The translations under genes were made by a program, and so were the position numbers. This document shows, piece after piece, positions 1-41,212 of a stretch of DNA of 64,000 nt. Below the pieces are notes generated by a model, which saw only the letters and a list, made by a program, of their open reading frames with translations, did not search any database and was not told the origin of the DNA. This stretch comes from a phage. The first letter of the stretch is position 1. Each line of letters begins with the position of its first letter. Where the stretch lies: assembly GCA_012441205.1 (NCBI GenBank), contig GCA_012441205.1_4705.1; one strand, written 5' to 3'.

Positions 1-820
1 GAACCGCGGTACAGGAAGGCTGGTTAGGCGACCCTAATACCTCCGTTGTGGGGTTAATTGCCGAAATAACGTTACGGGTTGAGTTCCAAACGCGACGTGA
101 ACCAAACTTACCTTGGAAGATCCCTTTCTTACCCTGGAACATATCCAACAGTAAAGCGTAGATATCGTTGAATGTTCTCTGTAAGCTCCAGCGCTGGCCG
201 TCGTAAACGGGATCGGAATAATCTTTTAATCCATCAGGGACGGTGTTAGAAATTGCAAGGAAACGACGATACAACTCCGTGATTTCTTGCTCGCTTTCAT
301 ACCCACCTTCTTTTACTTCTATTTCACGTAAGCCTGCAGGCAATACCAGTAAGTGACGGGTCATCGCTTTGAACATGTTCTCTTCGACAACTTTAATTCG
401 TAGCTCTCGTTGAGCTGAACCCGTTGAAACGAACTTGATATCCGCGACGTGTTGTGCAAAGAACCCGTATCCTGTTTGTCCTGTTAATGCATCAGACGCA
501 ACGAAGTCGCGTTGTTCGGGATCCCACCGAGCGTACGCCTTCCCCGACATGATATCGCCATAGAGGTGTTTTAATCGAATGAGACGGTCGTAAATGACAG
601 GATGCAGGATTTCAACCTTGCATTCAATCACCGCAAATCGACGGTCTCGATCTTCACTACCCGCACTACCAAAGATGGTGTAAGAATAGAAACCATCATC
701 GTGGAAATTACCGGTGCTTGGGTCACGAATGCTCATGCTCGTGATCTTGGGGAGAAAACGTAACTGCTGTTTATCGAGGTGTAAAATACTAATATTAAAC
801 GGCTCTCTGACTTTAGCCAT
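1..820 (-). CDS. multisubunit RNA polymerase beta-prime-like subunit, N-terminal part (gene continues past window start)
   Basis: ATG at 820-818 preceded by GAGGAG; frame stays open to position 1, so it is absent from the ORF track. Translation contains GKKGIFQGKFGSRRVWNSTRNVIS (cf. beta-prime [23 protein letters not shown]), ELYRRF (cf. DLYRRV) and LVLPAGLRE (cf. LPVLPPDLRP). Confidence 0.6.
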   Translation of the reverse strand, partial: MAKVREPFNISILHLDKQQLRFLPKITSMSIRDPSTGNFHDDGFYSYTIFGSAGSEDRDRRFAVIECKVEILHPVIYDRLIRLKHLYGDIMSGKAYARWDPEQRDFVASDALTGQTGYGFFAQHVADIKFVSTGSAQRELRIKVVEENMFKAMTRHLLVLPAGLREIEVKEGGYESEQEITELYRRFLAISNTVPDGLKDYSDPVYDGQRWSLQRTFNDIYALLLDMFQGKKGIFQGKFGSRRVWNSTRNVISAINPTTEVLGSPNQPSCTAV

Positions 821-1065
821 GGAGACACTCCTCTTTACCACCACCGGCTGCGGCGGTATCATCTGAACACACGAGAGACGTAATGGGTGATGGCGTCACC
901 CATCGCTTCCTTGCTTGAGGCGAGGAAGTTATTAGGTTACGTACCTGCCTGATTTTATCAGGTGGGCGATGTGTGAAGTTACGCTTCAACATTATCAATG
1001 CCGAAGGTAAACTTCGTGCATCACGTTCCAACGTAACATGGGAACGTATCGAACTGGAGGTATAC

Positions 1066-4000
1066 ATGGTAGATAAAACCCGTGTTGAGGGTGATGATAA
1101 TTGGGACAACTGGGATGAAGACTTCTCCCTGGATCTCGATTTTAACGAACCCAAAGACGATCGTAAACCGATAACACGCTTTGCGATAGGAGCGGTTAAA
1201 GGTGCTGCTGAGGATCTTACTTCCTACGAAAGAATGAAGGAGATCGCCAGAAACGCATTGCCTAAGGGCTACAGCGACGGTATGGATCTTATTGATTCCG
1301 CCGTCGGATCCACGAAGGAACTATACAATGAAGCCGTTCGTGACGTTCTTCCTAAGGTCCAAAGCTCAAAACGGTTAGCCGCACAACTGACCAAGAAATA
1401 CCGTGCGAGCATGCCCGATTTCTCGAAGAAAATTCTTGAACAATGGGAGCGAGAAGCCAAGGAAGAAGACGAACGTAAACAAGCTGAAGAAACCCTTCGT
1501 CAACGCATGGCGAGCGCGGGGGACGATGAGATCGCCCGCAAGGTTGCCGAGGCATTAGGCGAATCAGCAAACCAAAGCGCGGATCAGTTCGCTGAACAGC
1601 AAGCGAAAGAGAGTATCCGTGACGATATCGCTGACAAACGGTACGCTGTAACCAACAAACAAATGAGCGCGATGCAAGAAGGCGTCGCCAAGATGGTTGG
1701 TTTCAACAACGAATTCGCTGCACGCTACATGCGTAAAAGCCTGGAACTGAAATATCGTTCCTTAGCGATTCAACGTGCAAGTTTTGATCAGCATAAAAAG
1801 TTAGCCGAAGTCTATATCGGTTTATTACAAAACATCCAGAAGAATACGGCTTTACCTGATGCGGCTAAAGCAAAAATGTCGGAAGAATTCCGCCGTAGCG
1901 CGTACCAACGTTTCTTTGGTAATGCGTTAGATGCGATGAGTTCTTTCGAGAACCGTTTCTTTGCCGATGTTAAGAAGAACCTTGCCACCAACGCATTAGG
2001 CGCTTTAAAAGGTGTCGTGTCCGGCGCAAACGATGCGTTATACGGTTTAAACGAAGCGCGTGACTCGATGTCCATGATGGACGGGATGGGGTCAGAAGGC
2101 GATATTAAGGAAATGCAAGGAAAGATGTTGGGTCAGTTCATTGGCTCAACTGTCGCGCCGTGGATGGCTAATAAAGGCAGGATGGCGTTACGCGATTTAG
2201 CAAAACGTCACCCCAATGCTAAATTCGCTAGCGCATTAAAAGCCGTGGATCAAGGTGGTGAGGCTGCCGCTTACACGACGCGTAATCTCGGTAAACTGCT
2301 CCAGGAAGATATTCGTAAAAACGAATTCAATCTTAGCGATCCGTTTTACAAGCAATTGTTACGCGGTGCAGGGCGTTGGGCGTTCAACATGGACAGCGGA
2401 CGTAACTTCCGCGTGATGAACGACACCGCTGAAACACTGGCGGAGCAAACATCTTTCGACGGTTTAACTTACCGCAGTATCAATGAAGTTATTCCTGGTT
2501 TTCTTGCACGCATTCTGAAAAGCAGTGAAGGTATCCGCACCGGAAACAGCGATCCTGACTACGAGGTCTATGACGGCATCAGCGGACAATTCGTGTCTCA
2601 GCGCACGCGTGAACAAAGCGTCAATGACACGCTGTTTAACAAACGTACATTTGGTTATTACGCCAGCCGTTTCAACGAGGTTATCTCGGTCATCGATCCC
2701 GATAAGCAATTATCGGAAAAAGCCAGAAAGGCGCTGGCCAAGCAGTTGGCGCGAGATAGCGACGCGAACATCGCATTCGACCCGGCTCGTTTTACGGATG
2801 AAAGCAACTTCGATCGTAGTATTGACCGCGACGCTATTAAGGAACTTTCCACGTACTTTCGTGACCGTTACGGTATTCGTGATGATGTCAACGATAAGGG
2901 CGAACGTCATCAGGTCATTGGAAACCGCGGGCAATATTACACGGAACGTAACCGAGCCGATCTTCGTTACGGTCATCTGAAATCTTTACAACCGGATATC
3001 CAGCGTAACCTTAACCTGCTGAAACGTACTGGTGACGTCCAATATCTGGAACGGATTGGGATTGTAACGAGAAATAGCGACGGAAGCTACTCGGTTAATC
3101 ACGATCGGTATTTCTCTGAAATCGATCAATACATCGACCGACCGGAGTACGCTGACCGCGGCGATGTCAATACGCGATTAACCGCTCAGGAAACAAGAGC
3201 GCTGGCGCTGGGTTATCGTGACGCAAAACCATCAGCTGGTGACGTCCAAAATGTCGGCCTGCCGAACATCGGTCGTAAGGCTGCTGGAACAGTAACCGTT
3301 GATGAAAACATCGGCTACGATAAATGGTGGAACGACACAGGTGTTATCACCACATCGCTTGAAGAACAGAATCGAGCGTGGCAAGAGCTTTATCTCGAGG
3401 CGTTGTCCGAAGCATCCGAACAACGTGTTGAAATGCTTGCGCTGCTGAAAGCCATTTCTGAGAAAGACTGGTCTAATAACGTTTCGCTGGATGGTGAAGA
3501 TGTACCTGAAGGTACAGCACCCATTTCATTTATCGATCGTGCCAAACAAAAACTCGGCGGACGCAACCTGTTTAAAGGCGGCCGCAATCTCCTCTGGAAA
3601 GGAATTAAAAATACCGCACGTTTAGGTGTTAAAGGCGCACGCTGGGGTGCAGAACGCACGTTGGGTAGTTTGGTAAATTCTGGCCGACGCATTATCAATT
3701 TCAACCGCTTCGTGTTCGGCGCATTATCCAAGGTTGATCAGGTTCCGTTTGACATTTACGTTAAAGGGGAATCCCAACCACGCATACTGGCTGCCAAACT
3801 TCGTCAGGGGTTATACTTCGACGAAGCGACAGGAAAAGCCGTAAAACGGATGAAGGATATCAAAGGCCCACTCGTTGATGCGGATGGAAACATCGTAATC
3901 AGCAACGAGGATATCGAGAAAGGGTTGGTCACTCGCGCTGGTCGTGCCTTTGAGAATTCAGGACTTAAAGCATGGGCACGTGAAGGTCTTAATGGAATAA

Positions 4001-7000
4001 CGACGGCATTAAGTCTCCCACGGATGTTAAAACGCGGTGCGGTTGAGATCTACAAACAGCTTGACAAAACACCCGACGTTTACGTCAAGGGAGAATCAAC
4101 GCCTCGTCTGTTGTCCATGGTGTTAGCAGCGGGTGGGTATTTCCGTCGCTCGGATGGACAAGTCATCAAAAATCTTGAAGACATCGATGGTGATGTTGTT
4201 GATGCACAAGGTAACGTCGTACTTACGCTTGCCGACATGCAGAAAGGACTTGTCGATAAATACGGTAAAGCGATTCGTCGTTTAAAAGAAAAGCTCATCA
4301 ACTTCGGTGTAAAAGCTTTTACGTTACCGTTAACGTTGCTACGTAAGACAAAGGACATCCTTAAAGCCCTTCCAGGTAAAACCGTTAACGGTCTACGGCG
4401 GATGGGATTAAATTTCCAATCACCCGACGCATTACTGGTGGGAACAACGTCGAGCATGGTAGATCGCCTCGATGCTATTTACCAGCTTCTTGACCAGCGT
4501 ATGCCGGGAGGTGATAAGGATTACCGCGATTGGAATGGCGATGGTGTTCGAGAAGGATCGTTGGAAGACCTGAAACGTAAGCGTGAAGCCAAGGAAAACG
4601 GTAAGGATGACATCGGCAAAGATTCCAATAAAGGAGAAGAAAAGGAGAAGAAACGAGGGTTACTCGGAAGCCTTTTCGATATGCTCGGTGATACCGCAAT
4701 AGGTAAACGTCTCATGGCGAGTCCGCTTGGAAAAATTCTGGGTGGTCTTGGGGCGGTGTTAAGCGGCGGTGCGTCGTTAACTGGGTTGTTGGGCAAAGGT
4801 CTCATTAGAGGAACCGGCGCGCTGGTCAAGGGAGGACTAAGTGCGGCAGGATGGTTAGGACGTGGTGCGTTAATGGCGGGTGGGGCCGCGTTGAACGCCG
4901 TTGGTGGGTTATCGGGATTAGGTGCATTCCTCATCTCACCTGTTGGGCTTGCTATCGCTGGCGGTGCGTTGGCTGCTTATGCTGGATGGAAGATCTATCA
5001 GCATTTCGCCGAGAAGCCTGACCCGATGCAGAAGCTCCGTCTTATTGCATACGGTGCAAAAGGGGATGATAAAGACTTCAATAAGAAGCTGCTTGCGACA
5101 GAAACATACCTCACCGACCATGTGGTCATGACCGGGGATACCATCGGATTCGATCCGAAAGCCGATTCTGAAAAGATTCTCGAAATCTGGGAATTGTCTC
5201 TGGAAGATTCCGACCGAATGAACGAATGGAAACGCTGGTATCTGCATCGTTTTATTCCTGTTTTCGCTCGTGCGTACAAACTCTGGAAAGAGCATATGCC
5301 GGACGAGAAGAAATACATGGAAATGGATAAATATCCGAACGGTGAGAACAAAGTGAAATGGTCGGAAGCGTTTATCTGGCCTTCCGATAGTCCTGATGGT
5401 CCGTATTACGTCGAAGCTAACCCGTTGGGTTCTTCTGGTGCGACGCGTTATATTGCTGGTCAAGACGTCAAAACCTTGATGCTGAAACAGCTCGAAGCCA
5501 TCAAGAAAGAGTACCAGAATCAGATTAAGCAATACACTCATGATGAGGCTATTGCTGATTGGTCACGGATGTCTGACACACAACGTAAATCCGTTGCGCC
5601 TAACGCATTACGTGGTCAGAAAGCGTCATTACGTTTTAACGATAAACGTTACAACAGCGCTGGTGCTAAAGGACGACAGAAACTGGATGCAACCGCGGTT
5701 ATTGAAAGCGTAGACCGTCGTGGTAGAAAATGGGTTGCCGGTGGATACATCGATGAACTCACCAGTCTCCGTGTTCGTGCGTACGGTATTAAGGTTCCGT
5801 TGTTAAGTCAGATAAAAGTGCTGATGGAACTCGAAGACGCTGTAGAACCTGGCGTTGTCGCTGAAGGTAAAGGTGTTAAATACGGTGGCGATCTTGTCGC
5901 GCTCTACAAGAAATTCGCGACGAAGTTCGGAAGAGACGTTAACAGCAAGCATGATCAGGATATCTGGTTTGCTTGGATGAACAACCGTTTCCTGCCCGTC
6001 TTTTTAACCTATTACCAACAAGTTAGCGACATGGGCGGTCAAGGACTTCTGTCCGACGTGGTACAGAACCTGAAAGACAGCCAACGTTGGGAAATCGGTG
6101 AAGAACTTGTCGCAGCGCAATACCGTGATGAGAAAGGTACACTGCAGCCCGTATGGTCGTGGAACAGTTGTGGTTTCTCCGGTACTGAAGCTAACACCAC
6201 CAGCAGTTCAACAAAGAGTCAGCTCGATCTGTTAAAAGAATATGCGGATAAAGAGAAGGTTCGTGAGAAGAACGCGGAAGCATCGCAAGAGGATACCGAT
6301 AAATTATCGAAGATCCAAGAGCTGATGATGAAGCAGGCTGGGTACGAGAAGAAAGACGGTGTCTGGCAGAAGAAATCTCGCATTACCGGCGGGATGAGTA
6401 ACTCCGAAGCGAATTACAACCCCAATGGGAATAAGGTCGGTGCAAGCAGCTTTACTGCTTCAGCTACTTCCAGTGCGGGATTGGGGTCAACCGGCGATCT
6501 TACCGGATTGCCTAACATGGGCTTACAGAAACCTGCAACGGGGCCAGGTCCCGAAGCTGGACGTCGTGCGCTTGTTAAATCCGCTGTGAAACGCGGTATT
6601 ACCGATCCAATGGAAATGGCGATGTTCCTTGCAAACATCGAACATGAATCGGGGAACTACACTCACGTACGTGAGGGGAACTATAAGACACCAGAGCATC
6701 TTAAACAGGTCTTCCCTTACAAATTCCGTGACGTGCAGGATGCAGCGCAGACGATTAGCATGGGGCCGGAAGCGGTGTTCGAACGCGTGTACGGTAATCG
6801 TAAAGACTTAGGGAACACGCAGAAAGGAGACGGGGCGAAGTATTTAGGACGTGGCTTCATTCAGGTTACCGGTAAAGCTAACTACGCTCGTCTGTCCAAG
6901 ACCTTGAATAAAGATCTTGTCAGCGATCCATCATACCTGGAAACGCCGGAAGGTGCGGCGGAAGGTAGTGTCGCGTGGTGGCTCAACCGAGGCAATGTGT

Positions 7001-7731
7001 TACGCGATCCTGCGAAACGGGGTGATGTGCGCCAAGTTCGTTATCTGGTTAACGGTGGCTATAATGGATTACGTGACGTTGAACAGCGCTCTGCTTATTG
7101 GATTCAGGCGGCTAAGAATGGCACCCTGAAGAAAATGATGGATGAGTTATCGGGATCAACATCAGGCGATCAAGCTGAAGGACCGACTACCGCCGAGCAG
7201 GTGAAGAATGAAGCAGCCCAAGAGGCAAACGGAACGCCAACTGTAAGCAACGATCCGCAAGCCCCAGCACCTTCAACCACCCCTGAAGCTAAACCGTCTG
7301 CGGCTGCCGGTACGGCTCCAGCACCCGGAGAAGCATCACCAGCGCCTGGAAGTTTCGAAACAGCGAAAGCTGCGGCAGGACAACCGACATCAACGCCAGC
7401 ACTTAGCGATTTGCCGTCAAACCCTGGCGCAAATCGAGGGATATCGGTTCCGAATACGCCTGCACAGGTCGCGCAGTCTGCGACACAAACATCGGCCGCG
7501 AGTGAGAACTTCTACGGTAGCGCAGGTGAAATTCTCCGACAGCAGCTGACCACGCAGCAGAACATCGAGAAGAACACCGGTAGAACGAATGAACTTATTT
7601 CGGAATTAATCCAAGCCGTTAAGGGTTCTTCTATCGGTAAGGGTTCTGCAAGTCCTTCTCAACAACAGGCGATGTCGCTACCTAATCGTCCGCAAGGAAT
7701 CTCTCCAACACGGACAAGGTACGCGCAGTAG
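1066..7731 (+). CDS. giant virion-associated protein (~2220 aa) with Gly-rich hydrophobic segment and C-terminal GH19-like peptidoglycan hydrolase domain
   Basis: Single uninterrupted ORF (track 973..7731, GTG); preferred start ATG 1066 with GGAGG 5 nt upstream. Architecture resembles tape-measure or ejected cell-wall-degrading proteins of large phages. Confidence 0.8.
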   Translation: MVDKTRVEGDDNWDNWDEDFSLDLDFNEPKDDRKPITRFAIGAVKGAAEDLTSYERMKEIARNALPKGYSDGMDLIDSAVGSTKELYNEAVRDVLPKVQSSKRLAAQLTKKYRASMPDFSKKILEQWEREAKEEDERKQAEETLRQRMASAGDDEIARKVAEALGESANQSADQFAEQQAKESIRDDIADKRYAVTNKQMSAMQEGVAKMVGFNNEFAARYMRKSLELKYRSLAIQRASFDQHKKLAEVYIGLLQNIQKNTALPDAAKAKMSEEFRRSAYQRFFGNALDAMSSFENRFFADVKKNLATNALGALKGVVSGANDALYGLNEARDSMSMMDGMGSEGDIKEMQGKMLGQFIGSTVAPWMANKGRMALRDLAKRHPNAKFASALKAVDQGGEAAAYTTRNLGKLLQEDIRKNEFNLSDPFYKQLLRGAGRWAFNMDSGRNFRVMNDTAETLAEQTSFDGLTYRSINEVIPGFLARILKSSEGIRTGNSDPDYEVYDGISGQFVSQRTREQSVNDTLFNKRTFGYYASRFNEVISVIDPDKQLSEKARKALAKQLARDSDANIAFDPARFTDESNFDRSIDRDAIKELSTYFRDRYGIRDDVNDKGERHQVIGNRGQYYTERNRADLRYGHLKSLQPDIQRNLNLLKRTGDVQYLERIGIVTRNSDGSYSVNHDRYFSEIDQYIDRPEYADRGDVNTRLTAQETRALALGYRDAKPSAGDVQNVGLPNIGRKAAGTVTVDENIGYDKWWNDTGVITTSLEEQNRAWQELYLEALSEASEQRVEMLALLKAISEKDWSNNVSLDGEDVPEGTAPISFIDRAKQKLGGRNLFKGGRNLLWKGIKNTARLGVKGARWGAERTLGSLVNSGRRIINFNRFVFGALSKVDQVPFDIYVKGESQPRILAAKLRQGLYFDEATGKAVKRMKDIKGPLVDADGNIVISNEDIEKGLVTRAGRAFENSGLKAWAREGLNGITTALSLPRMLKRGAVEIYKQLDKTPDVYVKGESTPRLLSMVLAAGGYFRRSDGQVIKNLEDIDGDVVDAQGNVVLTLADMQKGLVDKYGKAIRRLKEKLINFGVKAFTLPLTLLRKTKDILKALPGKTVNGLRRMGLNFQSPDALLVGTTSSMVDRLDAIYQLLDQRMPGGDKDYRDWNGDGVREGSLEDLKRKREAKENGKDDIGKDSNKGEEKEKKRGLLGSLFDMLGDTAIGKRLMASPLGKILGGLGAVLSGGASLTGLLGKGLIRGTGALVKGGLSAAGWLGRGALMAGGAALNAVGGLSGLGAFLISPVGLAIAGGALAAYAGWKIYQHFAEKPDPMQKLRLIAYGAKGDDKDFNKKLLATETYLTDHVVMTGDTIGFDPKADSEKILEIWELSLEDSDRMNEWKRWYLHRFIPVFARAYKLWKEHMPDEKKYMEMDKYPNGENKVKWSEAFIWPSDSPDGPYYVEANPLGSSGATRYIAGQDVKTLMLKQLEAIKKEYQNQIKQYTHDEAIADWSRMSDTQRKSVAPNALRGQKASLRFNDKRYNSAGAKGRQKLDATAVIESVDRRGRKWVAGGYIDELTSLRVRAYGIKVPLLSQIKVLMELEDAVEPGVVAEGKGVKYGGDLVALYKKFATKFGRDVNSKHDQDIWFAWMNNRFLPVFLTYYQQVSDMGGQGLLSDVVQNLKDSQRWEIGEELVAAQYRDEKGTLQPVWSWNSCGFSGTEANTTSSSTKSQLDLLKEYADKEKVREKNAEASQEDTDKLSKIQELMMKQAGYEKKDGVWQKKSRITGGMSNSEANYNPNGNKVGASSFTASATSSAGLGSTGDLTGLPNMGLQKPATGPGPEAGRRALVKSAVKRGITDPMEMAMFLANIEHESGNYTHVREGNYKTPEHLKQVFPYKFRDVQDAAQTISMGPEAVFERVYGNRKDLGNTQKGDGAKYLGRGFIQVTGKANYARLSKTLNKDLVSDPSYLETPEGAAEGSVAWWLNRGNVLRDPAKRGDVRQVRYLVNGGYNGLRDVEQRSAYWIQAAKNGTLKKMMDELSGSTSGDQAEGPTTAEQVKNEAAQEANGTPTVSNDPQAPAPSTTPEAKPSAAAGTAPAPGEASPAPGSFETAKAAAGQPTSTPALSDLPSNPGANRGISVPNTPAQVAQSATQTSAASENFYGSAGEILRQQLTTQQNIEKNTGRTNELISELIQAVKGSSIGKGSASPSQQQAMSLPNRPQGISPTRTRYAQ
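4680..4990 (+). other. Gly/Ala/Leu-rich hydrophobic segment (GxxxG-like repeats) inside giant protein; probable membrane-inserting region
   Basis: Translation GLLGSLFDMLGDTAIGKRLMASPLGKILGGLGAVLSGGASLTGLLGKGLIRGTGALVKGGLSAAGWLGRGALMAGGAALNAVGGLSGLGAFLISPVGLAIAGGALAAYAGW. Confidence 0.5.
6560..7130 (+). other. GH19-like (chitinase/lysozyme family) catalytic domain within giant protein
   Basis: Motifs FLANIEHESGNY, YLGRGFIQVTGKANY, GSVAWWLNRG and YLVNGGYNGLRDVEQRSAYW match GH19 signatures (HET/HES catalytic region, GRGPIQLSWNYNY, AIWFWM). Confidence 0.65.
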
Positions 7732-7742
7732 TCATTAGTTAA

Positions 7743-7770
7743 GGGCGGGAATCTCCCGCCCTCTTCTTGA
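7743..7770 (+). terminator. putative intrinsic terminator after giant gene
   Basis: Stem GGGCGGGA / TCCCGCCC with short loop, followed by TCTTCTT. Confidence 0.4.
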
Positions 7771-7780
7771 GGAATGTTAC

Positions 7781-9922
7781 ATGGGTATTCTTGTTCAAAA
7801 CGCCCTAATCACCAAACAGGCGTTTTTATTACCGGGCGATAGCAGCACGCTTAGTGCTGACATGATTAAAGCGAGACATACACCGTATTCCTACGATAAC
7901 GTCGATGATACCACCTTAGGCGGGAACTGGGTGCTTAACCCACCACCGCAATATACCAAATTTGCCGACATCAAGGAACGCCGACGTGCGGTTATGCCTG
8001 GATCAACGGGCATGGGCCGAGGCTATAGTGAAAGCATTAACAGCTTTAAAGAGGTCGTTACGTTACGATTCGGTAAACCTCGCTTTACAGGCGCAAGTAT
8101 CTTCTTTACTGATTTCTACGATGCCGATGTTGCCGTAACGGTTAAAACCGGTCGCGATCCCGGTATTCTTTATTACGCAGCCAAAGCGTATACCACCGTT
8201 CTTTCTTACCTCACACCTCTACCCTACTTGTATATGGTTGGACGTATCGGTCGATATTTCCTGGGTAAGCCTACCAGTCAATATTACTATCAAGTACCAA
8301 CCATGCACGTGTATTGGGCGTCTTTCCAAACGCTGGTAAACCAAACAGCGATAAACATGGGTCTTATCGCCGGTGCCGGTAAAGATAAAGGCTATGTGGA
8401 AGAAGGGGGTACCGTACTCCACCAATATTCAATCGGTGGTCAGAACGTTGAAGAATTCATCAACTACGCCTCTAAGACGCTACCGGGGATTTATAAGAAA
8501 GGTGGTGGGATCGATATCTACCAGATCGCAACACGACGTCAGCGCATACAGAACGCATGGGTACGTCGTATTCAATCCATGATGGAAAACGATTACTCGT
8601 CTTACGAGGAGTTCTGGAACGATCTTGATAAACGACTTGATAGCGGAGCATTTCCATCGGATGTAACCGGCCGTACGTTAACGCAGTATCTCGCCGACAC
8701 GCAGAAGTCTGCTGTTTACAGTGCGACAGCTGGTGATAATAAACAAACGATGGACGACCTTTTATTTGGAAGAGCCTCGTACACCAATAAAGATGCCGAT
8801 GCTAACTTCAATGTCTCAGCGGCTACCTCCGACGGCGGTACGTCAACACAGAGTCAGGGTACAACAGCCAATGTCGGTAATTCGACGTCAGGGACAACGC
8901 AGGCTTCAACAACAGCATCAACGGCTGGAGGCGCGAACGTACAGAGCAAAGGAATCGGTCAAACGAACGCAGCCGAAGAAGCTACGTTTCTTGATCTGAT
9001 GGATGCTGAACTGGCCGATGGTGCTCAGTTTATCAGTTTTCGAGTCGACTCTGTCACCAGTGTAACCGAAACGTTTTCAAACAGCGCTTCAGAAAGTTCA
9101 ATCGCACAGACGATGAATAGCCGTGCACAAGCGAACATCGAACGTCGTTTCACCCTCTCCGGTGGTAATACAGGTTGGGCTGTACTAGACGAAGCCATCA
9201 AAGCCGGTTCCGATCTCGTTAATGGTGCTATTTCCGGGATGGGCCTGGATGGTATTTTTGGTGCCTTCATGGGTTCCGGCTTCGCCGACATTCCGAAATT
9301 CTATTCCGGATCATCGGTAAGTCTTCCGCGTGCAGATCTGACGATGGAATTGCGTTCCTGGAGCGGGGACCGCTGGTCGATCTTTACGAACCTCATGGTA
9401 CCTCTTTTAGCGATCCTTGCAGGTGGTTTACCTCAGGCTACCGGTAAATCGTCCTACGGGATGCCGTTCATGTGTGAGTGTTATATTCCAGGTAAAGTCC
9501 AGATTAAAATGGGCCTTATCGATAATATCACTGTGACGCGCCATGTTGGAAACGTACCATCAACACGCGAGCGATTACCGTTGGGGATCGACGTCAGCTT
9601 CAGCGTTTATGACCTGTCGTCTATCGTCGCCATGCCGATCACAACGACGGCCGCATCGATCGCAAAATTGGATCCTCGTGGCTTCTTAAGCGATCTTCTT
9701 GCTGACGATACGCCGCTCAACAACTATCTTGCTGTATTATCAGCATTGACACTTACGGAACAAGTTTACATGATTCCGGATTTAAGTCGTCGCATGCATA
9801 AAACCATGGCTGATATCGATAGTTTCTGGAGCAAAGGTAATTTTGCTAGCTGGTTGTCTGACACCATGCCTGGCAGGATAGCATCAGGGCTGTTATGGAA
9901 ACGTACAGAACGGCCGTTCTGA
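7781..9922 (+). CDS. hypothetical protein (713 aa), Ser/Thr/Gly-rich central region; possible virion protein
   Basis: Long ORF, ATG with GAGG upstream, immediately downstream of giant virion gene on same strand. Confidence 0.7.
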   Translation: MGILVQNALITKQAFLLPGDSSTLSADMIKARHTPYSYDNVDDTTLGGNWVLNPPPQYTKFADIKERRRAVMPGSTGMGRGYSESINSFKEVVTLRFGKPRFTGASIFFTDFYDADVAVTVKTGRDPGILYYAAKAYTTVLSYLTPLPYLYMVGRIGRYFLGKPTSQYYYQVPTMHVYWASFQTLVNQTAINMGLIAGAGKDKGYVEEGGTVLHQYSIGGQNVEEFINYASKTLPGIYKKGGGIDIYQIATRRQRIQNAWVRRIQSMMENDYSSYEEFWNDLDKRLDSGAFPSDVTGRTLTQYLADTQKSAVYSATAGDNKQTMDDLLFGRASYTNKDADANFNVSAATSDGGTSTQSQGTTANVGNSTSGTTQASTTASTAGGANVQSKGIGQTNAAEEATFLDLMDAELADGAQFISFRVDSVTSVTETFSNSASESSIAQTMNSRAQANIERRFTLSGGNTGWAVLDEAIKAGSDLVNGAISGMGLDGIFGAFMGSGFADIPKFYSGSSVSLPRADLTMELRSWSGDRWSIFTNLMVPLLAILAGGLPQATGKSSYGMPFMCECYIPGKVQIKMGLIDNITVTRHVGNVPSTRERLPLGIDVSFSVYDLSSIVAMPITTTAASIAKLDPRGFLSDLLADDTPLNNYLAVLSALTLTEQVYMIPDLSRRMHKTMADIDSFWSKGNFASWLSDTMPGRIASGLLWKRTERPF

Positions 9923-32928: not shown

Positions 32929-34017
32929 ATGAGCGACCTGGCAACAGACAATCGCACAAAAGGGAGTCAGCTAGCTCCAGACAACAACGTAAGCGTTTTC
33001 CGTATCTATGCCTTGGGTACTGTTGCTGCCGACTTTTCCAATAAAAGTCTGGAGGAAGATCCTAACCAGACGCTGGAGGTCTTTCTTGATGAGATGATGT
33101 CAGGCGCTGATGGGAAAGTTGAAGCGGTGGGAAGCGTTAAAGAAGTCAGTGCAACAGACGCTCAAGGGAACAGCTATACGGCGAAAGCGGCAACAACAAC
33201 CAGCATACAGTGTTACTGGTTACCCTTCGGCAGTAACCGGATGACAGCACCTAACTTGAGGAAAGGTCAGCGTGTGGTGGTTTGGCGTACCGCGGATGAA
33301 GAACAACTCTATTGGCAACCCAAAGGAGGGGATAGCGAGCTGATGACCATGGAATCGGTTATCCTCACCGTCAGCGCACGTCCTAGCGCCAAGAAGGACC
33401 GTAAATCGATTTCAACGGAAGACTGCTATTACCTAATGGTTGATACCTTCCTCAAGAAAGCGGTTATCGGCACCAGCGCACAGCTTGGTGAAGTTACCCA
33501 AGTCTACATGGAACTTAATCTGGACGAGGGTTACCTACAGGTTGCGGACAGCGTTCATCAAAATCTGTTGTTACTCCATTTTGTCGAGCATATGCTGCGT
33601 TATCAAAACCAGGACGACAGCATCATCGACGTGACAAAAAAGAACATCACGTTCCAGTGCGAGGATACGCTCAAAGCAATCGCTAAGAACGATATCCGAA
33701 TGAAAGCAAAAAATATTTATACGGAATGTGAGAACTTTGAACGTACCAGCAAAACAGAAAGCGTTACGAGTCAGAATGTTTCTTTGAAGTGTGATCGTTA
33801 CACCGCGCAAGTATCAGGACAGACCACGTTTAAATGTCCTAATACGGTATTCACTGGAGCTGTAAGCTTCACAGGTGAAGACGGAAACACGATGACGTTG
33901 AATGGGAACTTCGTACACATCGCAGGCTCTTGGCGTTCACCAACCGGAACAAACGTATACACCCACGATCACGGTGGTGTAGATCGTGGTAGCGGTCGTA
34001 CAGACCCGTTCCAATAA
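32929..34017 (+). CDS. hypothetical protein (362 aa), possibly structural
   Basis: ATG with AGGAG upstream; Gly-rich C-terminus DHGGVDRGSGRTDPFQ; structural role is a guess. Confidence 0.45.
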   Translation: MSDLATDNRTKGSQLAPDNNVSVFRIYALGTVAADFSNKSLEEDPNQTLEVFLDEMMSGADGKVEAVGSVKEVSATDAQGNSYTAKAATTTSIQCYWLPFGSNRMTAPNLRKGQRVVVWRTADEEQLYWQPKGGDSELMTMESVILTVSARPSAKKDRKSISTEDCYYLMVDTFLKKAVIGTSAQLGEVTQVYMELNLDEGYLQVADSVHQNLLLLHFVEHMLRYQNQDDSIIDVTKKNITFQCEDTLKAIAKNDIRMKAKNIYTECENFERTSKTESVTSQNVSLKCDRYTAQVSGQTTFKCPNTVFTGAVSFTGEDGNTMTLNGNFVHIAGSWRSPTGTNVYTHDHGGVDRGSGRTDPFQ

Positions 34018-40576: not shown

Positions 40577-41212
40577 TTACTCAACACTGAACCCGTTCAA
40601 GATGATCGCTTCATAACGCTTACGTTCACGACGTTTGCGTGCCTGCCAACCGTAGATGAATTTCTCATCTTTCTCACGACGTTCCGCTAATTCGATGTAA
40701 TAGGTGCTCTGCATGTCCAGCATCGCATCGATGAGATAATCCTTACCGGTTGCACCACGCTTAGCGATGTAAGCGTCGAGCGCGCTTAACGTCGCAGGTC
40801 CCATCAAACCGTCGGCGTTGATATTCTTCCAGTACGTTTGTCGGTTGTTCATGACGTTCAGATAACGTTGGAGGTTCTTAACCGGGACGGTTTTGCCAGC
40901 ATTGATACCCAGGTCAAAGAGACGGTCAGCTAAGAACACAGAACGTTTCATGACTTCGTCAAGTTTCATCTTATCCCAGAAGTGGGTCTTGTAGATAAAG
41001 AACGCCATTTCCGTGGTAAGGTTACGCATGTTACCGTCCCAGCCGAATTTCGTTTTCAGCGTGGTTTTGTATTGATCGGCGAGTGTTTTCGTAATGCCGT
41101 GGTTCGTGATTCCACCCGAGTCATCGGGATCGTCGACGTAACCTGCTTCGATGCTGGTTTTATCGCGAATGATAAATTCGCACGTGAAATCTTTCTCAGT
41201 AATCTTAGCCAT
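40577..41212 (-). CDS. endolysin, GH108-type lysozyme domain plus peptidoglycan-binding domain
   Basis: AGYVDDPDDSGGITNHGIT matches the GH108 EGGY..DP.D.GG.T..GIT motif; GLMGPATLSAL matches a PG-binding motif; GAGGAG upstream of ATG 41212; no signal peptide or SAR-like N-terminus. Confidence 0.75.
   Translation of the reverse strand: MAKITEKDFTCEFIIRDKTSIEAGYVDDPDDSGGITNHGITKTLADQYKTTLKTKFGWDGNMRNLTTEMAFFIYKTHFWDKMKLDEVMKRSVFLADRLFDLGINAGKTVPVKNLQRYLNVMNNRQTYWKNINADGLMGPATLSALDAYIAKRGATGKDYLIDAMLDMQSTYYIELAERREKDEKFIYGWQARKRRERKRYEAIILNGFSVE

What the first reader, a model, noticed from the sequence alone, without database searches (positions are those of the whole stretch)
1066..7731. Giant multidomain protein combining a Gly-zipper hydrophobic segment with a GH19-like cell-wall hydrolase
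A ~2220-aa ORF with coiled-coil/charged N-terminal regions, a roughly 100-aa Gly/Ala/Leu-rich hydrophobic segment (4680-4990), a GH19-like catalytic domain (6560-7130) and a Pro/Ala/Ser/Thr-rich tail. The layout suggests an ejected or tail-lumen protein that spans or digests the envelope during DNA delivery. GH19 (rather than a lytic transglycosylase) in this role is less commonly noted.
Basis: partly seen in the sequence, partly recalled or inferred. Interest (0 to 1): 0.55.

Follow-up and report, generated by a model that had tools for sequence, protein, structure and literature searches.

The report
Jumbo-phage tail giant protein with lysin
This 2,221-residue gene is the Goslar-type version of the well-known phiKZ gp181 / SPN3US gp239 giant tail protein, which carries a cell-wall-cutting enzyme into the host at infection; here the enzyme module is a GH19 muramidase instead of the usual lytic transglycosylase, so the finding is real but largely already known.

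Summary
The window comes from a close relative of Escherichia jumbo phage Goslar (96% nt). The protein is 98% identical to Goslar gp204, annotated 'putative chitinase' or 'tail fiber protein'. It is colinear with phiKZ gp181, SPN3US gp239 and EL gp183, and lies in the same gene order: virion RNA polymerase subunits (-), giant protein (+), tail-tube spacer ring (+). The C-terminal domain (aa 1829-2030) is a GH19 endolysin-type fold. Both catalytic Glu and 8 of 9 active-site residues of PaGH19Lys (9EOI) are conserved.

Published work shows the Goslar ortholog at about 5 copies per virion, loss of SPN3US gp239 with the tail, and muralytic activity of phiKZ gp181. The best reading is a tape-measure-like tail-lumen protein that delivers an entry lysin and a membrane-active hydrophobic block.

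Three corrections apply:
- 'Gly-zipper' is not supported, because GxxxG is depleted in the block.
- N-terminal coiled coil is not shown; the region is helical but has no heptad signal.
- GH19 is a minority module in this family, but not unique to this protein.

Both 2026 virion structures leave the protein unplaced. Novelty is low.

The parts
1066..7731 (+). Whole gene, 2,221 aa plus stop. Ortholog of Goslar gp204 (YP_009820915.1), phiKZ gp181, SPN3US gp239 and EL gp183.
1056..1060 (+). GGAGG ribosome-binding site, 5 nt upstream of the ATG at 1066. This start is preferred over the GTG at 973 used in the GenBank Goslar record.
   Evidence: first Met nearly invariant in homologs
1168..2400 (+). 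aa 35-445: charged region of very long predicted helices, one of 142 residues. Model confidence is low and there is no heptad signal.
2461..3207 (+). aa 466-714: compact alpha/beta domain and the best-conserved part of the family (motif EVIPGFLARI...IRTG). pLDDT is 80-93. No relative among solved structures.
3730..4371 (+). aa 889-1102: tandem duplication (repeat A, 889-999 / 998-1102). Each copy is a small beta-rich domain followed by a helix.
   Evidence: (Smith-Waterman score 185 against shuffles 45 +/- 10), (both copies aligned in phiKZ gp181)
4654..4995 (+). aa 1197-1310: Gly/Ala/Leu-rich hydrophobic block with 2-3 membrane-helix-length stretches. It is preceded by a highly charged K/E-rich stretch.
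5017..5523 (+). aa 1318-1486: domain B1, function unknown (motifs LRxxxYG and WxxRFxPVF).
5749..6375 (+). aa 1562-1770: domain B2, a paralog of B1, followed by a long helix.
   Evidence: (hhalign probability 99.4%, E 1e-21)
6550..7155 (+). aa 1829-2030: GH19 endolysin-type muramidase domain. The catalytic pair is E1861 (nt 6646-6648) and E1870 (nt 6673-6675).
7159..7458 (+). aa 2032-2131: Pro/Ala/Thr/Ser-rich linker, predicted disordered.
   Evidence: Goslar virion peptide from aa 2102-2124
7459..7623 (+). aa 2132-2186: C-terminal amphipathic helix, and the only helix with significant heptad periodicity.
   Evidence: conservation outside the Goslar clade is not significant
7781..9922 (+). Downstream gene, 713 aa. 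Homolog of phiKZ gp182 / Goslar gp203, the ring between tail tube and baseplate hub.
1..820 (-). Upstream divergent gene, 5' part only. It is 100% identical to the first 273 aa of Goslar gp205, a virion RNA polymerase subunit.

Best explanation
The gene encodes the Goslar-type member of the phiKZ gp181 / SPN3US gp239 family. This is a low-copy, tail-associated giant virion protein that carries the phage's entry lysin.

Proposed mechanism, with the status of each step:
1. A few copies (3-6) are built into the tail during assembly, most probably inside the tube lumen as a tape-measure-like protein. The gene sits next to the gene for the tube/hub spacer ring. Virion presence and tail dependence are shown for orthologs; the lumen position is inferred.
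2. After sheath contraction and loss of the spike, the protein leaves through the tube tip ahead of the DNA. This is inferred by analogy with T5 Pb2 and other tape measure proteins.
3. The C-terminal GH19 domain hydrolyses the MurNAc-GlcNAc bond of peptidoglycan locally. The intact catalytic site is shown here. Activity is shown only for phiKZ gp181, which has a different (SLT) module, and for free GH19 endolysins.
4. The central Gly/Ala/Leu hydrophobic block inserts into a host membrane and helps form or line the DNA conduit. This is inferred from hydrophobicity and its conserved position only.

Lysis from within at the end of infection is left to a separate GH108 endolysin, encoded at 40577-41212.

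My confidence by claim: gp181-family virion entry lysin about 0.95; tail-lumen or tape-measure role about 0.6; membrane insertion of the hydrophobic block about 0.4.
For: Identity:
- 96% nt and 98% aa identity to Goslar gp204.
- PHROG 3201 at E 2e-295.
- Colinear BLASTP to phiKZ gp181: E 5e-45 over aa 35-683 and E 6e-37 from aa 887 into the B2 domain (printed alignment cut at about aa 1636). tblastn places the phiKZ-type match at aa 35-1730.
- Colinear BLASTP to SPN3US-type gp239: E 2e-19 and 6e-9.
- The same synteny in Goslar, phiKZ, EL, SPN3US and JM-2012. The downstream gene matches phiKZ gp182 at E 3e-59.

Virion and tail location:
- Goslar LFQ-MS gives 34 peptides and about 5.1 copies (range 3.4-8.0), labelled 'Tail protein'. 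Known 6-copy baseplate proteins in the same table score 3.4-16.7.
- Peptides come from both ends of the protein.
- SPN3US gp239 is called the tail tape measure protein and is lost with the tail.
- The neighbouring gene product gp203/gp182 is the ring joining tube and hub.

Tape-measure likeness:
- 63% predicted helix in aa 1-1200 and 91% in aa 35-445, including a 142-residue helix.
- After family members, BFVD fold hits are mostly tape measure or minor tail proteins, but these are weak.
- Three to six copies would fill only 14-28% of a 68 Å lumen (using the phiKZ lumen).
- Neither the Goslar nor the phiKZ structural paper mentions a tape measure protein or models this protein.

Lysin:
- PDB sequence hits at E 5e-24 and matching fold hits.
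- H1860, E1861, E1870, Y1909, Q1932, T1934, N1996 and R2008 are identical to the PaGH19Lys active site.
- PaGH19Lys is a proven muramidase, and phiKZ gp181 is muralytic.
- The spike ortholog in this window has no lysozyme domain, and a separate GH108 endolysin exists.

Hydrophobic block: a Gly-rich hydrophobic block lies centrally, mostly between aa 1100 and 1800, in most of the 106 homologs.
Against: - No structure places the protein. The Goslar paper states that all density of the hub/spike and inner baseplate was assigned. An ordered C-terminus docked in the hub, as in many tape measure proteins, is therefore not seen.
- No Pfam or PHROG tape-measure family matches.
- The protein is a mosaic of helices and at least six globular domains, not a plain helical ruler.
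- The ruler arithmetic works for Goslar: 46 rings x 39.16 Å = 1801 Å, or 1,201 residues at 1.5 Å each, against 1,196 residues before the hydrophobic block. It fails for phiKZ: 1,622 Å, or 1,082 residues, against about 1,296.
- The hydrophobic block is much weaker in phiKZ gp181, with a maximum of 1.22.
- A phiKZ review statement says the contracted tube itself crosses both membranes. That would reduce the need for a protein channel.
- Muralytic activity of this GH19 module has never been measured.
Confidence: 0.65

Rival explanations
1. It is a component of the still-unmodelled peripheral baseplate or fibre network (the database label is 'tail fiber protein'). In that position it would present the lysin at the cell surface from outside the tube.
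For: RefSeq and PHROG 3201 call it 'tail fiber protein'. Large parts of the peripheral baseplate are unmodelled in both Goslar and phiKZ. Tail dependence in SPN3US fits equally well.
Against: There is no beta-helix, collagen-like or fibre-type repeat. The fold is predicted helical plus small globular domains. A 114-residue hydrophobic block would be exposed to solvent. A peptidoglycan hydrolase outside the outer membrane cannot reach its substrate. About 5 copies is low for six trimeric fibres. The 'tail fiber' label has no experimental basis that I could find.
Confidence: 0.15
2. It is packaged in the head and ejected through the tail. In this reading it resembles T7 gp16, an internal core protein with a lytic transglycosylase domain and membrane segments.
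For: The gene is flanked by virion RNA polymerase genes, whose products are head-packaged and injected. Its size, lysin domain and hydrophobic segment resemble T7 gp16 (my own knowledge; T7 gp16 is listed as an internal head lysin).
Against: SPN3US gp239 is absent or depleted more than 10-fold in DNA-filled tailless heads. The phiKZ record calls gp181 a 'tail-associated endolysin'. The Goslar authors label it 'Tail protein'. Its downstream partner is a tube/hub ring protein.
Confidence: 0.07
3. It forms the central needle-like cell-puncturing spike of the baseplate, as in the 2008 model for phiKZ gp181 (analogous to T4 gp5).
For: Reviews still list gp181 as a 'needle-like cell-puncturing device, putative trimer'.
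Against: The spike and hub are now built atomically from other proteins: Goslar gp13/gp48 and phiKZ gp164/gp163.1/gp101. All density there was assigned without this protein.
Confidence: 0.03
4. It is mainly an endolysin that acts from within at the end of infection, and its presence in virions is incidental.
For: Several homologs are annotated 'putative endolysin'. The GH19 domain is most similar to free endolysins.
Against: A 245-kDa structural protein with only a few copies per virion is an implausible bulk endolysin. The window encodes a standard GH108 + PG_binding_3 endolysin at 40577-41212. The scaffold is conserved while the lytic module is swapped, which fits a delivery vehicle.
Confidence: 0.03

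Closest known systems
Pseudomonas phage phiKZ gp181 (2,237 aa 'structural peptidoglycan hydrolase', Briers et al. 2008)
   Same: Homologous and colinear from aa 35 to about 1730. The alignment covers the tandem repeat A, the central Gly-rich block and both B domains. The flanking genes are the same. A muralytic domain sits at the same position, aa about 1830-2030 here and 1885-1978 in gp181. It is a virion protein with measured muralytic activity.
   Different: The catalytic module is an SLT lytic transglycosylase (PF01464) in gp181 and a GH19 hydrolase here. Overall identity is only about 24-25%. The hydrophobic block is much stronger here, peaking at 1.91 against 1.22.
Salmonella phage SPN3US gp239 (259 kDa, 'tail tape measure protein')
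   Same: Homolog with the same synteny. It is the largest virion protein and is lost with the tail. It has a strong central hydrophobic block at aa 1342-1441.
   Different: It carries an SLT module. Detectable similarity is limited to aa 29-572 and 1321-1724. The tape-measure label in those papers is an assignment, not a demonstrated ruler function.
Pseudomonas phage EL gp183 (2,543 aa), the Ralstonia phage RSL2 homolog, and other GH19-bearing family members
   Same: Same family, and also a GH19 module: Pfam PF00182 at 32 bits in EL gp183 and a GH19 annotation for the RSL2 homolog. In metagenomic family members the GH19 domain is 33-45% identical to this one.
   Different: These are longer proteins. 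Their GH19 domains are no closer to this one than free endolysins are (33-40%). A single acquisition cannot be distinguished from repeated acquisitions.
Phage T5 Pb2 and mycobacteriophage tape measure proteins with embedded lysin motifs
   Same: The same functional logic applies: a long tail-lumen protein that measures the tail, is expelled at infection, and carries both a hydrophobic/fusogenic segment and a muralytic domain. T5 Pb2 is listed; the rest is my own knowledge (Boulanger 2008; Piuri and Hatfull 2006).
   Different: There is no detectable sequence or fold relationship. Those are non-contractile tails, and Pb2's lysin is a peptidase. Lumen location and expulsion are demonstrated for Pb2 but not here.
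GH19 endolysins PaGH19Lys (9EOI), SPN1S endolysin (4OK7), KTN6 gp46 (8P8E)
   Same: Same fold and active site. E-values run from 5e-24 to 1e-17, and both catalytic Glu plus Y, Q, T, N and R are conserved.
   Different: Those are free proteins of about 200 aa that act from within. Here the domain is residues 1829-2030 of a 2,221-aa virion protein. The Pfam GH19 score is below the gathering cut-off, 18.5 against 25.5.
T4 gp5 (spike lysozyme) and gp29 (tape measure)
   Same: The Goslar and phiKZ hub, spike and two-ring tube initiator mirror T4. The entry lysin and the ruler are both needed functions.
   Different: T4 puts the lysozyme on the spike, gp5. Here the spike ortholog has no lysozyme domain, and the lysin sits on the giant protein, which would combine the roles of gp29 and gp5.

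Membership tests
phiKZ gp181-like giant virion peptidoglycan hydrolases (PHROG 3201) | Sequence homology over the large non-catalytic scaffold | tested here: met
   PHROG 3201 at E 2e-295. BLASTP to phiKZ gp181 at E 5e-45 and 6e-37, colinear. BLASTP to SPN3US-type gp239 at E 2e-19. 275 jumbo-phage records hit by tblastn.
phiKZ gp181-like giant virion peptidoglycan hydrolases (PHROG 3201) | Conserved gene order: virion RNAP subunit genes (-), giant gene (+), gp182-like spacer-ring gene | tested here: met
phiKZ gp181-like giant virion peptidoglycan hydrolases (PHROG 3201) | A muralytic module near residue 1,850-2,100 | tested here: met
   GH19 at aa 1829-2030. The module type differs from the SLT of gp181 and gp239.
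phiKZ gp181-like giant virion peptidoglycan hydrolases (PHROG 3201) | Physical presence in the virion, dependent on the tail | not testable with these tools
   Literature only. The Goslar ortholog is detected at about 5 copies per virion. SPN3US gp239 is lost in tailless particles.
Glycoside hydrolase family 19, endolysin subfamily | GH19 lysozyme-like alpha-helical fold | tested here: met
   The AF2 model matches 7R6S, 4OK7, 9MS7, 8XCL, 9EOI and 8P8E (probability 1.00, target TM-score 0.50-0.65), then GH19 chitinases.
Glycoside hydrolase family 19, endolysin subfamily | Catalytic Glu pair (E-x8-E) and the surrounding active-site residues | tested here: met
   E1861 and E1870 align with E51 and E60 of PaGH19Lys. 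H, Y, Q, T, N and R are identical, and I187 becomes V.
Glycoside hydrolase family 19, endolysin subfamily | Score above the curated Pfam PF00182 cut-off | tested here: not met
   18.5 bits against a cut-off of 25.5. The model is chitinase-centred. phrog_181 'endolysin' at E 2e-52 and PDB hits at E 5e-24 outweigh this result.
Glycoside hydrolase family 19, endolysin subfamily | Hydrolysis of the MurNAc-GlcNAc bond of peptidoglycan | not testable with these tools
   Shown for PaGH19Lys, not for this protein.
Tail tape measure proteins | Located in the tail-tube lumen of the assembled virion | not testable with these tools
   Neither 2026 structure models or mentions the protein.
Tail tape measure proteins | Length of the protein (or of its extended part) proportional to tail length | tested here: inconclusive
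   Goslar: the 1,801 Å tube needs 1,201 residues, and 1,196 residues precede the hydrophobic block. phiKZ: 1,082 residues are needed, against about 1,296. Only two tails are known.
Tail tape measure proteins | Predominantly long alpha-helices | tested here: inconclusive
   aa 35-445 is 91% helix and aa 1-1200 is 63% helix, at low pLDDT. At least six globular domains interrupt the helices.
Tail tape measure proteins | Match to a described tape-measure sequence or structure family | tested here: not met
   No tape-measure family in Pfam or PHROGs. No PDB fold hit for aa 1-1200. The BFVD tape-measure hits are weak (best E 2.7e-4, TM-score below 0.1).
Tail tape measure proteins | Gene adjacent to tube-initiator or hub genes; 3 or 6 copies per virion | tested here: met
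   Adjacency to the gp203/gp182 gene was tested here. The copy number of about 5 (range 3.4-8) comes from the literature.
Transmembrane glycine zipper (GxxxG-type motif) | Enrichment of GxxxG / (G,A,S)xxxGxxxG spacing in the hydrophobic segment | tested here: not met
   3 GxxxG against 7.5 +/- 2.0 in shuffles, with 99.75% of shuffles at or above the observed count. The i+4 Gly-Gly spacing has z = -2.1.

The most novel reading that the evidence does not exclude
The conserved central hydrophobic block, perhaps with the duplicated B domains, may do more than line a channel. [quoted passage not shown] In that case the tape-measure-like protein would seed the phage's first membrane compartment.

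The evidence does not exclude this reading:
- Every listed phage record carrying the family is a phiKZ-related jumbo phage of 167-322 kb. The virion RNAP synteny was confirmed in each of the seven that I inspected.
- A Gly-rich hydrophobic block lies centrally in most of the 106 homologs.
- The EPI vesicle is thought to derive from the inner membrane, and the EPI-vesicle paper I read does not mention the tail tube or a tape measure protein.
- No structure or function has been assigned to this part of the protein.
Probability: 0.08. Interest if true: 0.75.

Novelty: already known. Interest (0 to 1): 0.28.

Why it matters
As a discovery it matters little. The gene is a 98% ortholog of an annotated Goslar gene. 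Its family (phiKZ gp181) was shown to be a virion muralytic protein in 2008, and the tape-measure label is already used for SPN3US gp239.

It is useful as a reminder of an open point. The largest tail protein of chimalliviruses is absent from both 2026 whole-virion atomic models, so where it sits and what its roughly 1,800 non-catalytic residues do remain untested.

The analysis here gives a domain map for such experiments:
- a long-helix N-terminal region;
- a conserved alpha/beta domain;
- two internal duplications;
- a hydrophobic block;
- an interchangeable lysin slot (SLT, GH19, M23, CHAP and others).

The isolated GH19 module (aa about 1820-2040) is also a candidate enzybiotic against E. 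coli.

Tried and rejected
- Self-BLASTP found no internal repeats. Smith-Waterman window scanning and hhalign did find them.
- Pfam on the whole protein gave only a sub-threshold GH19 hit and a spurious Talin_R4 hit.
- Foldseek of the N-terminal 1,200 aa against PDB found nothing (best E 0.43). Against BFVD it found family members and only weak tape-measure look-alikes.
- Foldseek of the C-terminal model found no relatives for the B domains.
- I suspected a family-wide conserved C-terminal helix from the MAFFT consensus. Pairwise tests against phiKZ, EL and SPN3US are at shuffle level, so I dropped the claim.
- The ruler test fits Goslar but not phiKZ, so it is not used as support.
- The heptad test is negative for the N-terminal helices.
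- The Gly-zipper motif test is negative.
- Distant homologs in Bacillus phage AgentSmith and Halocynthia phage JM-2012 were inspected for a classical tail-module context that would independently tie the family to tape measure proteins. Both are phiKZ-like, with the same RNAP synteny, so they add nothing independent.
- The main texts of the Goslar and phiKZ structure papers never mention gp204, gp181 or a tape measure. Only the MS supplement does.
- Three tryptic peptides from the GH19 and B2 regions were not found in the stored part of that supplement. The file is truncated, so this is uninformative.
- Sigma-70 promoter and terminator scans were at chance level.
- There were no Rfam hits in the window.

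Full report

Yes. The longest ORF in the region runs 973..7731 on the + strand from a GTG. An ATG at 1066 lies 5 nt after a GGAGG. That Met aligns with the nearly invariant first Met of 39 homologs. The GenBank record of the related phage uses the upstream GTG.

The hydrophobic block is aa 1197-1310 (nt 4654-4995). In aa 1201-1300 it is G 28%, A 15%, L 20%. It is the only part of the protein with a 19-residue Kyte-Doolittle mean above 1.0, peaking at 1.91.

The GH19-like domain is aa 1829-2030 (nt 6550-7155). The P/A/T/S-rich stretch is aa 2032-2131. An ORF of this length is far beyond chance.

**2. Where the window comes from**

Megablast gives 96% identity over the whole gene to Escherichia phage vB_EcoM_Goslar, a nucleus-forming jumbo phage (Chimalliviridae), at 215510-222175. 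The protein is 98.2% identical to Goslar_00232 / HOV27_gp204 (YP_009820915.1). GenBank annotates that protein 'putative chitinase' (COG3179) and RefSeq annotates it 'tail fiber protein'.

The window continues across the ends of the linear Goslar record, so the genome is permuted relative to it.

**3. What family it belongs to**

PHROG 3201 matches aa 11-1178 at E 2e-295, and phrog_181 ('endolysin') matches aa 1836-2060 at E 2e-52.

BLASTP to phiKZ gp181 (2,237 aa) gives two colinear segments: E 5e-45 over aa 35-683, and E 6e-37 from aa 887 into the second B domain, where the printed alignment is cut at about aa 1636. tblastn places the phiKZ-type match at aa 35-1730. The second segment covers the tandem repeat, the Gly-rich block and the two downstream domains.

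The SPN3US-type protein is also homologous (E 2e-19 and 6e-9). I used SPFM16_00225, which is 2,373 aa and 259.1 kDa. Its gene is 96.4% identical in nucleotide sequence to SPN3US_0239. EL gp183 is a further member.

Gene order is the same in Goslar, phiKZ, EL, SPN3US and even Halocynthia phage JM-2012. Virion RNA polymerase subunit genes lie on the minus strand, then the giant gene, then a gp182-like gene. In this window:
- the upstream fragment 1-820 (-) is 100% identical to Goslar gp205, a vRNAP subunit;
- the downstream 713-aa ORF (7781-9922) matches phiKZ gp182 at E 3e-59.

tblastn with the non-catalytic 1,830 aa finds 275 phage records. All listed records are jumbo phages of 167-322 kb.

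**4. The lysin module**

Pfam gives only a sub-threshold GH19 hit, 18.5 bits against a cut-off of 25.5. Other evidence is much stronger:
- phmmer against PDB sequences gives E 5e-24 to 9EOI (PaGH19Lys), 7e-23 to 7R6S and 2e-19 to 4OK7 (SPN1S endolysin).
- Foldseek of the AF2 model returns the same GH19 endolysins first, then GH19 chitinases.

The paper on 9EOI lists the active site as H50, E51, E60, Y103, Q127, T129, I187, N188 and R197. It shows the enzyme is a muramidase and that E60Q is nearly inactive. In the HMMER alignment these residues correspond to H1860, E1861, E1870, Y1909, Q1932, T1934, V1995, N1996 and R2008. The catalytic machinery therefore appears intact.

**5. The lysin slot is interchangeable**

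phiKZ gp181 carries SLT (PF01464) at aa 1885-1978. SPN3US-type gp239 carries SLT at aa 1984-2072. EL gp183 carries GH19 at about aa 2099-2151.

Among 106 homologs from genomes and metagenomes, the precomputed Pfam domains are as follows (family names are from my knowledge of the accessions):

| Pfam family | Homologs |
|---|---|
| PF01464 (SLT) | 56 |
| PF00182 (GH19) | 4 |
| PF01551 (M23 peptidase) | 4 |
| PF05257 (CHAP) | 6 |
| PF18013 (phage tail lysozyme) | 4 |
| PF21277 | 7 |
| PF02557 (VanY-type) | 4 |
| no Pfam hit | 28 |

Five of the 28 without a Pfam hit are the Goslar clade, which carries the GH19 motifs. GH19 is therefore a minority module (9 of 106), but it is not unique.

GH19 domains of other family members are 33-45% identical to this one. 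Free endolysins are about equally close. I cannot tell whether the module was acquired once or several times.

**6. Architecture of the rest**

AF2 with family alignments gives the following map:

| Residues | Feature |
|---|---|
| aa 35-445 | Almost continuous long helices (91% helix, one helix of 142 residues), low confidence |
| aa 466-714 | Compact alpha/beta domain, pLDDT 80-93, holding the most conserved motifs (EVIPGFLARI...IRTG) |
| aa 765-890 | Long helices |
| aa 889-999 / 998-1102 | Tandem duplication of a small beta-rich domain plus helix |
| aa 1197-1310 | Hydrophobic block |
| aa 1318-1486 | Domain B1 |
| aa 1562-1770 | Domain B2 |
| aa 1829-2030 | GH19 |
| aa 2032-2131 | Disordered linker |
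| aa 2132-2186 | C-terminal helix |

The tandem duplication scores 185 by Smith-Waterman, against shuffles of 45 +/- 10. B1 and B2 share a secondary-structure order and are paralogs by profile-profile comparison (hhalign probability 99.4%, E 1e-21).

None of the non-catalytic parts has a relative among solved structures.

A Gly-rich hydrophobic block lies centrally, mostly between aa 1100 and 1800, in most of the 106 homologs. Its strength varies: the peak is 1.91 here and in SPN3US gp239, 1.53 in EL gp183 and 1.22 in phiKZ gp181.

**7.

- 'Gly-zipper' implies GxxxG spacing. That motif is depleted in the block: 3 occurrences against 7.5 +/- 2.0 in shuffles, and the i+4 spacing has z = -2.1.
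- 'Coiled-coil' is unproven. The N-terminal helices show no 3.5-residue periodicity. Only the C-terminal helix does (p = 0.005).
- I first thought that C-terminal helix was conserved family-wide, but pairwise tests are at shuffle level.

**8. Experimental knowledge on orthologs (literature)**

- phiKZ gp181 is a structural protein with high muralytic activity. It was proposed in 2008 to be the cell-puncturing needle.
- The 2026 atomic models build the spike, hub and two-ring initiator from other proteins. Goslar uses gp13, gp48, gp203 and gp62. phiKZ uses gp164, gp163.1, gp101, gp182 and gp88. This rules out the needle model.
- Neither paper mentions gp204, gp181 or a tape measure protein.
- The Goslar MS supplement detects YP_009820915.1 with 34 peptides and 24% coverage. 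The estimate is 5.1 copies per virion (range 3.4-8.0), and the protein is labelled 'Tail protein'. Known six-copy proteins in the same table score 3.4-16.7.
- Peptides from aa 393-406, 771-787 and 2102-2124 are listed, so both ends are present in virions.
- In SPN3US, gp239 is called the tail tape measure protein. It is missing or depleted more than 10-fold in DNA-filled tailless particles.

**9. Most likely mechanism**

A few copies are built into the tail, most probably in the tube lumen as a tape-measure-like protein. They leave through the tube tip after contraction. The GH19 domain then cuts peptidoglycan locally, and the hydrophobic block engages a membrane.

What is shown:
- homology, synteny and an intact active site (here);
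- virion presence, tail dependence and muralytic activity (orthologs).

What is inferred: lumen position, ejection and membrane insertion.

Supporting arithmetic: three to six copies would occupy 14-28% of a 68 Å lumen. The 1,801 Å Goslar tube (46 rings x 39.16 Å) corresponds to 1,201 residues at 1.5 Å per residue, close to the 1,196 residues before the hydrophobic block. The same calculation fails for phiKZ (1,082 residues against about 1,296), so I treat the Goslar fit as possibly coincidental.

Division of labour also fits. The spike ortholog in the window (32929-34017) has no lysozyme domain. A standard GH108 + PG_binding_3 endolysin is encoded at 40577-41212.

**10. Rivals**

- A peripheral baseplate or fibre component is possible, because that region is unmodelled. 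It fits poorly with a hydrophobic block, a periplasmic substrate and a helical fold.
- A head-packaged ejection protein like T7 gp16 is contradicted by the SPN3US tailless data.
- The spike model is contradicted by the 2026 structures.
- A bulk endolysin is implausible given the size, the copy number and the separate GH108 enzyme.

**11. Novelty and verdict**

However, the gene, its family, its virion association and the tape-measure assignment are already in the databases and the literature. GH19 in this slot also already exists in EL gp183 and others.

This analysis adds a domain map, two internal duplications and a count of lysin-module swapping. It also shows that the protein is still unplaced in both whole-virion structures.

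Interest is low to moderate. The most novel reading not excluded is a role of the hydrophobic block in forming the EPI vesicle, which I rate as unlikely on present evidence.

Noticed in passing
window 40577-41212 (-): A separate 210-aa endolysin candidate, GH108 + PG_binding_3 (Pfam E 1e-20 and 1e-18), the ortholog of Goslar gp024. The phage therefore carries two unrelated muralytic folds, presumably one for entry and one for exit.
   Followed up: partly
window 32929-34017 (+): Ortholog of Goslar gp13, the baseplate central spike. It has no Pfam domain and no lysozyme module, unlike T4 gp5.
   Followed up: partly
window ~22810 onward: The window runs across the ends of the linear Goslar GenBank record. 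Window 22810-43700 matches Goslar nt 1-20823 at 95% identity, with 83% coverage in 4 pieces. The genome is therefore permuted relative to the record, and there are indels or divergent stretches.
   Followed up: no
window 3730-4371 and 5017-6375: Two internal duplications lie inside the giant protein. Repeat A is tandem, at aa 889-999 / 998-1102. Domain B has copies at aa 1318-1440 and 1562-1685 (hhalign probability 99.4%). Both are conserved in phiKZ gp181. Their function is unknown and no solved-structure relative was found.
   Followed up: yes
L008 (Bacillus phage vB_BspM_AgentSmith) 11893-21281: In this Gram-positive-host relative the gene appears split into two adjacent ORFs. AGENTSMITH_81 (1,044 aa) is annotated 'lytic murein transglycosylase' and AGENTSMITH_82 (2,081 aa) 'endolysin'. 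They again sit next to a virion RNAP subunit gene.
   Followed up: no
proteins P0021, P0050, P0051, P0060: Family members of 2,230-2,390 aa sit on large contigs (143-493 kb) deposited as Paraburkholderia or Caballeronia genomes. NCBI names one of them 'cell pole-organizing protein PopZ'. These are probably jumbo-phage sequence in bacterial assemblies, plus one misannotation.
   Followed up: no
protein cluster P0001: The 90%-identity cluster of the Goslar protein holds 615 member sequences from Logan assemblies of public sequencing runs. Goslar-like phages therefore seem common in sequenced samples.
   Followed up: no
window 7732-7780: Only 49 nt separate the giant gene from the downstream spacer-ring gene, and no terminator-like hairpin lies between them. 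The two are probably co-transcribed. Sigma-70-type promoter matches in the region are at chance level, as expected for a phage that uses its own RNA polymerases.
   Followed up: partly
L001 8308-8736 (Goslar 211817-212245; just outside the window): The Goslar record annotates a group I intron RNA between the virion RNAP genes upstream of this locus. No Rfam family reaches its gathering score inside the window itself.
   Followed up: no
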